From assembly GCF_003334255.1 (NCBI RefSeq), contig NZ_QOWU01000009.1: 64,000 nt of DNA. One strand, 5' to 3'. The position numbers were made by a program, and so were the translations under genes. Of the stretch, positions 20,936 to 24,053 are shown in pieces (position 1 is the first letter of the stretch; each line of letters begins with the position of its first letter). The notes beneath the pieces were generated by a model, which was not told where the DNA came from, did not search any database, and saw only the letters and a list, made by a program, of their open reading frames with translations. The DNA is from Escherichia coli. GTDB lineage: Bacteria > Pseudomonadota > Gammaproteobacteria > Enterobacterales > Enterobacteriaceae.

Positions 20936-22072
20936 CAGGCGTCACGCGGTAACCCTTTTTCAATCACCCGAACCAGACGCTGTTTTTTCGGCAATTGCAC
21001 TTCGACTATGCACGCATTTCGTCTCTCTATTTGCTGCGCAATCGCCCACGCTATGTGCTCATCGAGAAGTGGGTGCTCACCTTTACGACTTTCCAGCGCT
21101 GTCAAAATCGTTTCATCCCAAGGGGCATTGCCTAATGCTACGGCGATATTACGCAGCCAACGCAGGTGACCAATACGACGAATCGCCGATCCTTCCGTGA
21201 CTTTTAAAAACTTCTCTTCGTTCCAGGCGAATAACTCAATGAGTTCCGGTGCGTGTAGCGGCTTACGCGGGCTGAAATCCTCTTCTGTGGTGAGTTGTGA
21301 ATAGCGATTCCACGGGCAGATAAGCTGGCAGTCATCGCAACCGTAAATACGGTTTCCCATTAACGGTCGCAACTCTTCCGGGATCGCCCCTTCAAGTTCG
21401 ATGGTGAGATAAGAGATACAGCGGCGAGCATCGACGGTATATGGCTCGACGATGGCACCGGTCGGGCAAATCGTCATACAGGCCACGCATTTGCCGCATC
21501 CTTCCTCGACTGGTTGATCCACGGGCAGCGGAATATCGACCAGCAATTCGCCTAAAAAGAAGAACGAACCGGCCTCGCGATTGAGGATAAGTGAGTGCTT
21601 ACCTGTCCAGCCGAGCCCAGCTTTTTCAGCTAACGGGCGCTCGAGAATAGGCGCAGAATCGACAAACGGTCTAAAATTCAGCGAAACACAATGTTGCTGA
21701 ATCATCTCGCCCAGCTTTTTGAGTCGGTTGCGCAGAAGTTTGTGATAGTCACGGCCCAGCGCATAACGGCTAACATAGCCGAGTTTGGGGTTTTTCAGCG
21801 TGCTGGCAAATGCGGCGTTAGCAGGAAGGTAATTCATCCGCACGCTGATCACGCGCAGCGTACCGGGCAATAACTCATGAGGGCGAGCGCGCAGCATACC
21901 GTGACGTGCCATCCAGTCCATTTCGCCGTGGTATTGTTTGTCCAGCCATGCTTGCAGTTTGGGCTCGGACTCGCTGAGATCGGTATCGGTAATACCTACC
22001 TGCTGAAAGCCCAGTTCCAGCCCCCACTGTTTAATTTTTTGCGCTAACTGATTGAGATCGAGGGGCTCTGAC

Positions 22073-22074
<2 letters not shown>
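20935..22074 (-). CDS. queG: Epoxyqueuosine reductase QueG (YjeS)
   Basis: 379 aa from ATG at 22074 ([18 protein letters not shown]...); 4Fe-4S ferredoxin cysteine motifs; the ORF track's 415-aa version is an extension. Confidence 0.9.

Positions 22075-24053
<1,979 letters not shown>

What the first reader, a model, noticed from the sequence alone, without database searches (positions are those of the whole stretch)
22072..22075. Divergent queG and nnr share their start-codon nucleotides
The ATG of nnr (22073-22075) and the ATG of queG on the opposite strand (22074-22072) overlap within the palindromic tetramer CATG/ATGA, so the two divergent genes have no intergenic promoter space. Promoters must lie inside the partner's coding region, or an alternative start is used.
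Basis: seen in the sequence. Interest (0 to 1): 0.3.

Follow-up and report, generated by a model that had tools for sequence, protein, structure and literature searches.

The report
Head-to-head genes sharing start-codon bases
Two E. coli housekeeping genes that point away from each other really do begin on the same four bases (CATG), and each gene's promoter sits inside the other gene's coding sequence; this is a neat arrangement, but it is already annotated and its overlapping transcripts are already published.

Summary
The window is E. coli and is identical to K-12 at this locus. Bases 22072-22075 read CATG. RefSeq annotates nnr from ATG 22073-22075 and queG from the minus-strand ATG 22074-22072, a 2-nt overlap.

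Published RNA-seq and dsRNA data place the nnr-operon 5' end at about 21685, which is 388 nt inside queG, and the queG 5' end at about 22098, which is 24 nt inside nnr. The two promoters therefore face each other and the transcripts overlap by about 413 nt. That overlap has been recovered as RNase III-cut dsRNA, and queG-nnr is listed among 16 divergent "excludons" in E. coli.

My own comparison of 81 Enterobacteriaceae agrees. In each gene, the stretch with the least synonymous variation is a -10-like hexamer just upstream of those 5' ends, and it is written in invariant rare codons (AGA in queG, ATA in nnr).

The queG start is secure. The first ATG of nnr is likely (about 0.7): it has a strong Shine-Dalgarno sequence and is the only possible start in 20 species. 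Codon 6 remains possible, because four Kosakonia species must use it. Even then the gap would be only 13 nt.

This is a real but already known arrangement of modest interest.

The parts
22072..22075 (.). CATG tetramer holding both annotated start codons (nnr ATG 22073-75 on +, queG ATG 22074-72 on -)
   Evidence: Sequence. RefSeq annotation. CATG is present in 80 of the 81 loci printed; it serves as an in-frame overlapping start in 75 of the 80 non-K-12 species.
20935..22074 (-). queG CDS (epoxyqueuosine reductase, 379 aa)
   Evidence: The start ATG is invariant in 81/81 species. Distant QueG homologues align from residue 1. There is no in-frame ATG/GTG/TTG between the mapped 5' end at 22098 and this ATG (read from the sequence).
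22073..23620 (+). nnr CDS (NAD(P)HX epimerase/dehydratase, 515 aa as annotated). It is the first gene of the nnr-tsaE-amiB-mutL-miaA-hfq-... operon.
   Evidence: Pfam YjeF_N covers residues 40-199 and Carb_kinase covers 258-496. Operon description in PMC4161252.
22060..22065 (+). Shine-Dalgarno GAGGGG for the first nnr ATG (7-nt spacer). It is written in queG codons Pro4-Leu5 (CCC-CTC).
   Evidence: The duplex with the 16S 3' end is -7.2 kcal/mol, in the top ~4% of ATGs in the window. CCC is used in 80/81 and CTC in 77/81 species despite 4- and 6-fold degeneracy.
22088..22090 (+). Alternative nnr start (Met6, MKKNPVSI...)
   Evidence: Its SD is weak (-3.2 kcal/mol). Codon 6 is ATG in 31, GTG in 16 and TTG in 8 of the 80 non-K-12 species, and it is not a start codon in the others aligned at that position. 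Its equivalent is the only usable start in four Kosakonia species. Some automatic gene callers choose it, giving 510-aa products.
22106..22114 (-). queG promoter extended -10, TGGTATACT on the minus strand, written in nnr codons Ser12-Ile13-Pro14 (AGT-ATA-CCA)
   Evidence: Best promoter-like match in my scan. AGT is used in 79/81, ATA in 80/81 and CCA in 81/81 species. This is the lowest synonymous-entropy window in all of nnr. ATA is rare, and this is the only invariant Ile column of 26. The element lies inside the published delta-PqueG deletion.
22129..22134 (-). Weak -35-like hexamer TCGGCG, 17 nt upstream of the queG -10
   Evidence: It matches only 3 of 6 positions and is not specially conserved. 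This is an inferred element.
22075..22098 (-). queG 5' UTR (24 nt, U-rich, no real SD), antisense to nnr codons 1-9. The 5' end is at ~22098.
   Evidence: The overlap boundary 4,392,114 (U00096.2) converts to 22098. SD duplex is -2.2 kcal/mol, about the median for random ATGs, and the leader has little structure. ACGGACCATA is conserved even in Kosakonia, where it no longer encodes Nnr.
21672..21677 (+). nnr-operon promoter -10-like hexamer TAAAAT, written in queG codons Asn133-Phe134-Arg135 (AAT-TTT-AGA)
   Evidence: All three codons are invariant in 81/81 species. This is the lowest synonymous-entropy window in all of queG. AGA makes up 4.5% of Arg codons in these genes, and this is the only one of 46 conserved Arg columns that uses it. 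The hexamer lies 8 nt upstream of the published 5' end at 21685.
21685..22072 (+). nnr 5' leader (388 nt), antisense to queG codons 1-130
   Evidence: Conway promoter coordinate 4,391,701 (U00096.2), quoted. The offset was verified with the siRNA CAUGACGGACCAUACAAUGAAG.
21685..22098 (.). Zone of ~413 nt transcribed on both strands. It is the source of RNase III-cut dsRNA.
   Evidence: p19 clusters S-361 and E-284 (window ~21738-22093) and Lybecker dsRNA MS-212 (window ~21701-22084), labelled 'Divergent'. queG-nnr is listed as a divergent excludon.
22039..22085 (.). Block conserved at all three codon positions across the junction (queG codons 2-12 and nnr codons 1-4)
   Evidence: It contains the nnr SD and the queG translation-initiation region. 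The reason for the constraint at 22039-22059 is not established.

Best explanation
queG and nnr are a genuine head-to-head gene pair whose coding sequences abut and most likely share two bases (CATG). Because there is no spacer, every expression signal of each gene is written inside the other gene.

The nnr operon is transcribed from a promoter whose -10 (TAAAAT, 21672-77) lies in queG codons 133-135. Transcription starts near 21685, giving a 388-nt leader that is antisense to the first third of queG. queG is transcribed from an extended -10 promoter (TGGTATACT, 22114-06 on the minus strand) lying in nnr codons 12-14. Transcription starts near 22098, giving a 24-nt leader with no real SD that is antisense to nnr codons 1-9. 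The Shine-Dalgarno of nnr (GAGGGG) is written in queG codons 4-5.

The two promoters therefore face each other across ~413 bp. Both strands of that zone are transcribed, the RNAs pair, and RNase III cuts the duplex.

Shown: the sequence geometry, the annotation, the published 5' ends and dsRNA, and the cross-species pinning of synonymous sites. Inferred: that the two hexamers are the functional -10 elements, that nnr translation begins at the first ATG in E. coli (about 0.7), and that the overlap has any regulatory consequence (mutual interference).
For: Geometry and annotation.

Published transcript ends and dsRNA. It gives the Conway operon promoter at 4,391,701, the 413-nt divergent overlap ending at 4,392,114, the Lybecker dsRNA MS-212, and the p19 clusters. 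The offset is fixed by an siRNA sequence in the same call. [quoted passage not shown] One search lists queG-nnr as a divergent excludon. One search shows the delta-PqueG deletion at ~22104-22134. describes yjeF as the first gene of a 14-gene, 8-promoter operon.

Independent comparative test: in 6-codon windows across both whole genes in 81 species, the minimum synonymous entropy falls on queG codons 130-135 and nnr codons 10-15. These hold the invariant rare codons AGA and ATA. The chance of both minima falling in those zones is about 0.024 x 0.012.

nnr first ATG: the SD duplex is -7.2 kcal/mol, against -3.2 for Met6. It is in frame in 75 of 80 species and is the only ATG/GTG/TTG upstream of the conserved S-I/L-P motif in 20 of them. 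That motif is conserved in relatives at 40-50% identity, which rules out starts further downstream.

queG ATG: 81/81 conserved, and homologues align from residue 1.

Generality: in distant relatives (45-50% identity) queG and nnr are still divergent. The called or corrected spacing is -2 to ~22 nt in four of the five loci, and a minus-strand TGGTAnnCT or TATACT sits at or next to the first nnr codons in four of the five.
Against: I did not see primary TSS data (dRNA-seq, Cappable-seq, 5'-RACE). The 5' ends come from Conway's coverage-based map, read second-hand from another paper's supplementary table, and assigning 4,392,114 to the queG 5' end is my reading of its columns.

Both promoters have poor -35 hexamers, and the tool's stringent sigma-70 scan found none in 20700-23700.

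No N-terminal proteomics or initiation-site profiling for Nnr or QueG could be found.

Four Kosakonia species have a +1 insertion that puts the first ATG out of frame, so Nnr works without residues 1-5 and codon 6 is a competent start. Codons 2-4 stay conserved in those species, so their conservation reflects the queG leader and not Nnr coding.

The 81 species are phylogenetically related. One of the six peptide patterns used to fetch them was MTDHTMKK, which may bias the sample toward conserved N-termini.

No experiment shows that the overlap changes the expression of either gene.
Confidence: 0.8

Rival explanations
1. In E. coli, nnr is translated mainly or only from Met6 (ATG 22088-90). On this view the first ATG is an accident of the queG start codon plus one G, so the coding sequences do not truly overlap and are separated by 13 nt.
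For: Four Kosakonia species can only use the codon-6 equivalent. Codon 6 is ATG, GTG or TTG in 55 of 80 species. A and T of the first ATG are fixed by queG's own start, and codons 2-4 are conserved even where they are non-coding. Some automatic callers pick the 510-aa form. Residues 1-11 are a poorly conserved tail outside the Pfam domain.
Against: The first ATG has a strong, well-spaced SD (-7.2 kcal/mol), whereas Met6 has only -3.2. In 20 of 80 species there is no ATG/GTG/TTG at or near codon 6, so only the first ATG can serve. The free base G22075 is kept in 80 of the 81 loci. The one species that lost it has a new ATG at codon 2. The frame from the first ATG is open in all but the Kosakonia clade.
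Confidence: 0.25
2. The pinned synonymous sites are RNA-level features rather than promoter elements. They could be mRNA structure, RNase III or RNase E sites, sRNA pairing sites or translation ramps. On this view the real promoters are elsewhere.
For: Other constrained windows exist that I cannot tie to a promoter: queG codons 2-12 and 156-161, and nnr codons 358-370 and 394-396. Both -35 regions are poor.
Against: Each minimum is a TAnnnT hexamer on the strand of the partner gene, 8 nt upstream of an independently published 5' end. The queG element carries the TGn extension that compensates for a weak -35. Another laboratory treated the same 31 nt as PqueG. No Rfam family matches here.
Confidence: 0.08
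3. The overlap is an annotation artefact on the queG side, and queG really starts further downstream.
For: queG has essentially no Shine-Dalgarno sequence (-2.2 kcal/mol).
Against: The next in-frame ATG/GTG/TTG is about 50 codons downstream, inside the conserved N-terminal domain (translation; sequence). The ATG is invariant in 81 species. QueG homologues at 47-68% identity align from residues 1-6. The mapped 5' end lies 24 nt upstream of this ATG.
Confidence: 0.03

Closest known systems
Divergent 'excludons', i.e. divergent operons with overlapping 5' ends in E. coli (Conway et al. 2014, PMC4161252; ExcludonFinder 2025, PMC12288877)
   Same: The genes are neighbours on opposite strands and their transcripts overlap at the 5' ends. 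dsRNA is formed and cut by RNase III. queG-nnr is itself on the published list of 16. Conway reports that 136 of 388 divergent operon pairs overlap.
   Different: Most listed pairs have an intergenic region (mean 95 nt for E. coli excludons). Here the coding sequences themselves touch or overlap, so both promoters, one whole leader and one SD are dual-coded inside ORFs. The 413-nt overlap is well above Conway's 168-nt average. Mutually exclusive expression, the functional core of the excludon idea, has not been shown for this pair.
Listeria excludon loci, where a long antisense 5' UTR of one operon represses the divergent neighbour (cited in PMC4161252; the details are from my own knowledge)
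   Same: A long leader of one operon (here 388 nt for nnr) runs antisense through the 5' part of the divergent gene (queG).
   Different: In Listeria the inhibitory effect on the neighbour was demonstrated experimentally. Here only the anatomy and the dsRNA are documented.
Classic divergent overlapping promoters such as ilvY-ilvC and argECBH (references 17 and 18 in PMC4161252)
   Same: Divergent genes whose promoter regions interpenetrate.
   Different: Those promoters sit in a shared intergenic control region with a regulator. Here the promoters are face-to-face, ~413 bp apart, and embedded in coding sequence, and no regulator site has been identified.
Same-strand 4-nt ATGA/TGATG overlaps used for translational coupling (PMC2716372)
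   Same: A short tetramer-scale overlap of coding signals. The same pair of genes shows an ordinary same-strand overlap at its other end (nnr/tsaE, 29 nt).
   Different: The strands are opposite, so ribosomes cannot couple. The overlap joins two starts, not a stop and a start.

Membership tests
Head-to-head (divergent) overlapping protein-coding genes | Two CDSs on opposite strands whose 5' ends overlap | tested here: met
   Annotated queG runs to 22074 and nnr runs from 22073. Both starts hold up under comparative analysis: queG firmly, and the first ATG of nnr with probability ~0.7.
Divergent excludon | Neighbouring divergent transcription units whose transcripts overlap at the 5' ends | tested here: met
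   This rests on published data that I read and re-mapped, not on new data. The 5' ends fall at window ~21685 (+) and ~22098 (-), a 413-nt overlap. The pair is listed as a divergent excludon. The conserved -10 hexamers fit these ends.
Divergent excludon | The overlapping RNAs pair in vivo and are processed by RNase III | tested here: met
   This also rests on published data. p19-captured ~21-nt duplexes cover the zone in exponential and stationary phase, and the zone matches an antibody-captured dsRNA (MS-212).
Divergent excludon | Expression of one unit lowers expression of the other (mutual exclusion) | not testable with these tools
   No expression measurement of nnr in the delta-PqueG strain, or the reverse, was found.
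Sigma-70 extended -10 promoter (PqueG) | A TGn motif immediately upstream of a TATAAT-like hexamer, which tolerates a weak -35 | tested here: met
   TGG-TATACT at 22114-22106 (5 of 6 matches), with -35 TCGGCG (3 of 6) at 17 nt. The element is invariant across 81 species. Promoter activity itself was not testable.
Sigma-70 promoter (P-nnr at 21672-77) | A -10 hexamer plus a recognisable -35 at 16-18 nt | tested here: inconclusive
   The -10 TAAAAT matches 5 of 6 positions and is invariant, but no -35 better than 3 of 6 was found and the tool's scan found nothing. A different sigma factor or an activator is possible. By eye I found no convincing sigma-E, sigma-32 or sigma-54 match.
Gene with alternative in-frame translation starts (two Nnr isoforms) | Two start codons used in the same cell | not testable with these tools
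   Both ATG1 and ATG6 are plausible. No initiation profiling or N-terminomics data for this gene could be retrieved.

The most novel reading that the evidence does not exclude
The dual-coded junction may be a conserved regulatory module rather than mere compaction. On this reading, face-to-face promoters pinned in rare codons since before the Enterobacteriaceae diverged couple queG (queuosine tRNA modification) inversely to the nnr-tsaE-amiB-mutL-miaA-hfq super-operon. The coupling would work through polymerase collision and RNase III cleavage of the 413-nt duplex. Choice between the ATG1 and Met6 starts of Nnr might add a second layer of control.
Probability: 0.2. Interest if true: 0.45.

Novelty: already known. 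Interest (0 to 1): 0.2.

Why it matters
It is a clean textbook case of how far bacterial genomes can compress information. Two promoters, a leader and a ribosome-binding site are all written inside protein-coding sequence. The cost is visible in invariant rare codons (AGA, ATA) that would otherwise look inexplicable.

For annotation, it shows that this head-to-head overlap need not be "corrected" away. For engineering, it is a warning. Deleting or recoding the 5' end of queG removes the primary promoter and leader of the operon that leads to mutL, miaA and hfq. Edits in the first 20 codons of nnr remove the queG promoter.

It does not open a new question. The overlap is annotated in RefSeq, and the antisense transcripts are in four published datasets.

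Tried and rejected
1. The tool's stringent sigma-70 scan over 20700-23700 found no promoter. A looser scan of my own picked up the extended -10 for queG.

2. I searched supplementary tables for direct TSS or translation-start evidence for yjeF/nnr and yjeS/queG. There were no occurrences, or no files were held, for:
- TRAINSPOTTER N-terminomics
- the Ribo-RET preprint
- Conway 2014
- SMRT-Cappable-seq
- ExcludonFinder
- Romero 2014
- the Salmonella primary transcriptome
- TetRP
Only the p19 paper's supplement was informative.

3. The search for homologous proteins returned only close relatives, so distant relatives came from the representative search. Three of the nine look-ups gave contexts without queG (L087, L088, L090). 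One protein was not on record.

4. No E. coli Nnr structure exists by sequence search, so a construct N-terminus could not help.

5. Rfam found only the three tRNAs and sub-threshold noise.

6. I considered a second, proximal nnr promoter in 22030-22065, and sigma-E, sigma-54 or CRP-like readings of the conserved blocks. By eye none matched a consensus well, so I dropped them.

7. I considered whether conservation of Nnr codons 2-4 proves that the first ATG is used. I rejected this, because those bases stay conserved in Kosakonia, where they are out of frame.

Full report
**What the window is.** Megablast of 21400-22800 finds the segment in all 5,426 complete E. coli genomes, at 100% identity to K-12 MG1655-type records. 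In NC_000913.3 the genes are queG (b4166, 4392928-4394067, minus) and nnr (b4167, 4394066-4395613, plus). Between about 20.6 and 38 kb the window is identical to MG1655, and window position = NC_000913.3 position minus 4,371,993. The neighbours are rsgA, orn, glyV-X-Y, yjeV and queG on one side, and nnr-tsaE-amiB-mutL-miaA-hfq-hflXKC on the other.

**The observation.** The bases c22072-a-t-g22075 are present. The plus-strand ATG (22073-75) opens the 515-codon nnr frame, and the minus-strand ATG (22074-72) opens the 379-codon queG frame. RefSeq annotates exactly these starts in K-12 and in the more divergent strain 536, whose junction is base-for-base identical. The 81-nt junction is at least 99% identical in 4,832 of 5,426 genomes. 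Of the six divergent CDS pairs in the surrounding 50 kb it is the only overlap; the other spacings are 41 to 354 nt. Divergent overlaps are reported to be strongly under-represented in prokaryotes, and the authors attribute this to the need for upstream regulatory signals (PMC2174442).

**Are the two starts right?** I fetched the locus from 80 other Enterobacteriaceae species with Nnr identity of 73-98%.
- *queG.* The ATG is invariant in 81/81. The next in-frame start is about 50 codons into a conserved domain. QueG homologues at 47-68% identity align from residues 1-6. The published 5' end lies only 24 nt upstream, and no in-frame start codon lies between them. queG has practically no Shine-Dalgarno (-2.2 kcal/mol, the median for random ATGs) and has a short, U-rich, unstructured leader.
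- *nnr.* There are two candidates, ATG1 and Met6. Relatives at 40-50% identity share an N-terminal (S)-L/I-P-x-x-L/V-Y/W motif that aligns with E. coli S12-I13-P14...W18, so the start must lie upstream of codon 12.
- *For ATG1.* It has a GAGGGG Shine-Dalgarno at 7 nt (-7.2 kcal/mol, top ~4% of ATGs in the window), against -3.2 for Met6. It is in frame in 75 of 80 species, and in 20 of them it is the only ATG/GTG/TTG before the motif.
- *For Met6.* Four Kosakonia genomes carry a +1 insertion. This puts ATG1 out of frame, with a stop after about 20 codons, and leaves the Met6 equivalent as the only start. Salmonella enterica subsp. arizonae reads CATT and has a new ATG at codon 2. Automatic gene callers disagree, giving 515 or 510 aa.
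- *A caveat on codons 2-4.* They are invariant even at synonymous sites, but they stay so in Kosakonia, where they no longer encode Nnr. Their conservation therefore belongs to the queG leader.
- *Assessment.* I put ATG1 usage in E. coli at about 0.7. If Met6 were the start, the gap would be 13 nt.

**Where the promoters are: published data.**
- The supplement of the p19 dsRNA study (PMC7373196) lists, in U00096.2 coordinates, stationary-phase cluster S-361 (4391754-4392109) and exponential cluster 284 (4391759-4392107), annotated 'yjeF yjeS, 5''. It matches them to Lybecker's antibody-captured dsRNA MS-212 ('Divergent', 4391717-4392100). It also matches them to Conway's operon map: plus-strand promoter at 4391701, terminator at 4408049, overlap region 4391701-4392114, 413 nt, 'Divergent'.
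- The same file gives the siRNA CAUGACGGACCAUACAAUGAAG at 4392087 (0-based). This fixes the nnr ATG at U00096.2 position 4392089, which is window 22073.
- The nnr-operon 5' end is therefore at window ~21685, 388 nt inside queG. The other boundary, which I read as the queG 5' end, is at window ~22098, 24 nt inside nnr.
- The cluster is among the 20 most abundant coding-gene dsRNA clusters in stationary phase.
- ExcludonFinder lists queG-nnr among 16 divergent excludons of E. coli, and lists yjeV-queG-nnr as a non-contiguous operon.
- A 2024 datA study built a delta-PqueG strain. Its primer joins ...GAAGAAAAACCCCG directly to CGATATCC..., so it removes window ~22104-22134, inside nnr.
- Conway et al. 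describe yjeF...rlmB as the most complex operon in their map (14 genes, 8 promoters). They report that 136 of 388 divergent operon pairs overlap at the 5' ends, by 168 nt on average.

**Where the promoters are: an independent sequence test.** I built codon alignments of both whole genes from 81 species. For positions with a conserved amino acid, I computed the entropy of synonymous codon choice in 6-codon windows.
- *In queG.* The minimum out of 334 windows is codons 130-135 (window 21670-21687). Asn133-Phe134-Arg135 are AAT-TTT-AGA in 81/81 species, which reads TCTAAAATT on the plus strand. This is a TAAAAT hexamer 8 nt upstream of 21685. AGA makes up 4.5% of Arg codons in these genes, and this is the only one of 46 conserved Arg columns that uses it.
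- *In nnr.* The minimum out of 342 windows is codons 10-15. Ser12-Ile13-Pro14 are AGT (79/81), ATA (80/81) and CCA (81/81), which reads TGGTATACT on the minus strand. This is an extended -10 element 8 nt upstream of 22098. ATA here is the only invariant Ile column of 26.
- *Chance.* The probability that both minima fall in those zones by chance is about 0.024 x 0.012. This figure does not correct for the relatedness of the species.
- *The junction.* The next most constrained part of queG is codons 1-8. There CCC-CTC (Pro4-Leu5; 80/81 and 77/81) spell the nnr Shine-Dalgarno on the other strand.
- *Weak points.* Both -35 regions are poor. The sigma factor for the nnr promoter is undetermined.

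**How it most likely works.** The promoters face each other about 413 bp apart. RNA polymerases converge, both strands of 21685-22098 are transcribed, the RNAs pair, and RNase III cuts them. The anatomy and the dsRNA are shown. Whether this changes the output of either gene (transcriptional interference or antisense control, the 'excludon' idea) is untested. The parsimonious alternative is long-standing compaction that is tolerated because both genes are expressed at low, housekeeping levels.

**Beyond Enterobacteriaceae.** Nnr representatives at 45-50% identity were traced to contigs.
- In five of the eight contexts recovered, queG is still divergent from nnr-tsaE-amiB(-mutL). This counts the cut gene in L089, whose translation matches the QueG N-terminus.
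- The start-to-start spacing is -2 nt in L083 (again CATG), 6 nt in L085, about 22 nt in L084 (after moving queG to an upstream ATG that I found by translation), and 22 nt in L089. The called 73 nt in L086 rests on an over-extended queG call.
- The Ser-Leu-Pro codons of nnr read TGGTAnnCT on the minus strand in L083, L084 and L085. In L089 a perfect TATACT lies 7 nt upstream of the queG ATG.
- The tight head-to-head layout, with the queG -10 at or inside the first nnr codons, therefore looks old. The exact CATG overlap is one state of a drifting start position. The Nnr tail upstream of the L-P motif varies from 0 to 12 residues.

**Comparison with what is known, and verdict.** This is a member of the published class of divergent overlapping transcription units, and it is itself on those lists. 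Its distinguishing features are that the CDSs themselves touch and that every signal is dual-coded. No Rfam family lies here, and there is no E. coli Nnr structure to consult. What I add is the cross-species synonymous-site evidence that pins both -10 elements and the SD, and the natural Kosakonia frameshift showing that Met6 is a competent start. Interest is low to modest.

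Noticed in passing
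window 20899-20952 (+) and 20935-22074 (-): The 17-codon ORF yjeV overlaps the 3' end of queG by 18 nt, convergently. ExcludonFinder lists yjeV-queG as a convergent excludon and yjeV-queG-nnr as a 'non-contiguous operon'. The datA DnaA-inactivating locus lies just upstream, between the tRNA genes and queG.
   Followed up: no
window 23552-23620: nnr and tsaE overlap by 29 nt on the same strand (tsaE ATG at 23592). nnr codons 496-503, just upstream of that ATG, show low synonymous variation, as expected for the tsaE ribosome-binding region.
   Followed up: partly
window 23144-23182 and 23252-23260 (nnr codons 358-370 and 394-396): Strongly constrained synonymous sites lie deep inside nnr (for example CTG 81/81, GCA 80/81, GAT 81/81, CGT 80/81, AAT 80/81, CGC 81/81, TTA 77/81). 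They could be internal promoters of the yjeF...rlmB operon, for which Conway reports 8 promoters. I did not identify them.
   Followed up: partly
window 21592-21609 (queG codons 156-161): A run of near-invariant codons (GGT 79/81, AAG 80/81, CAC 80/81, TCA 79/81) lies 76-93 nt upstream of the nnr-operon 5' end. It could be a regulator site for that promoter. It remains unexplained.
   Followed up: no
window 21691-21873 (+): A 60-codon ATG ORF antisense to queG begins 6 nt after the nnr-operon 5' end at 21685. A second ORF (21877-22047) follows within the 388-nt leader. I did not test either for conservation or translation. Both are probably spurious.
   Followed up: no
L049, L054, L060, L062 (Kosakonia cowanii, K. 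arachidis, K. oryziphila and a MAG), junction region: A shared +1 insertion after ...ACGGACCATAG puts the SD-bearing first ATG out of frame. This creates a ~20-codon upstream ORF that overlaps the real nnr start. Other Kosakonia species (L033, L035, L039) keep the standard frame.
   Followed up: partly
L017 (Salmonella enterica subsp. arizonae) and L015 (subsp. diarizonae), junction: L017 reads CATT-ATG, so the shared ATG is lost and replaced by an ATG one codon downstream. L015 has both ATGs (MMDHNMKK). This appears to be a start codon caught in the act of shifting.
   Followed up: partly
window 3664/3706 (epmB/efp): This is another tight divergent pair in the same window, with 41 nt between the starts. 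It is also on the published list of divergent excludons.
   Followed up: no
window ~20500-20590, ~38000 and beyond ~41500: The window is not MG1655 throughout. There is a 1-nt register shift relative to NC_000913.3 in the glyX-glyY spacer region and another near 38 kb. Identity drops to about 94-98% in several 500-nt blocks from about 38 kb onward. None of this affects the finding.
   Followed up: partly
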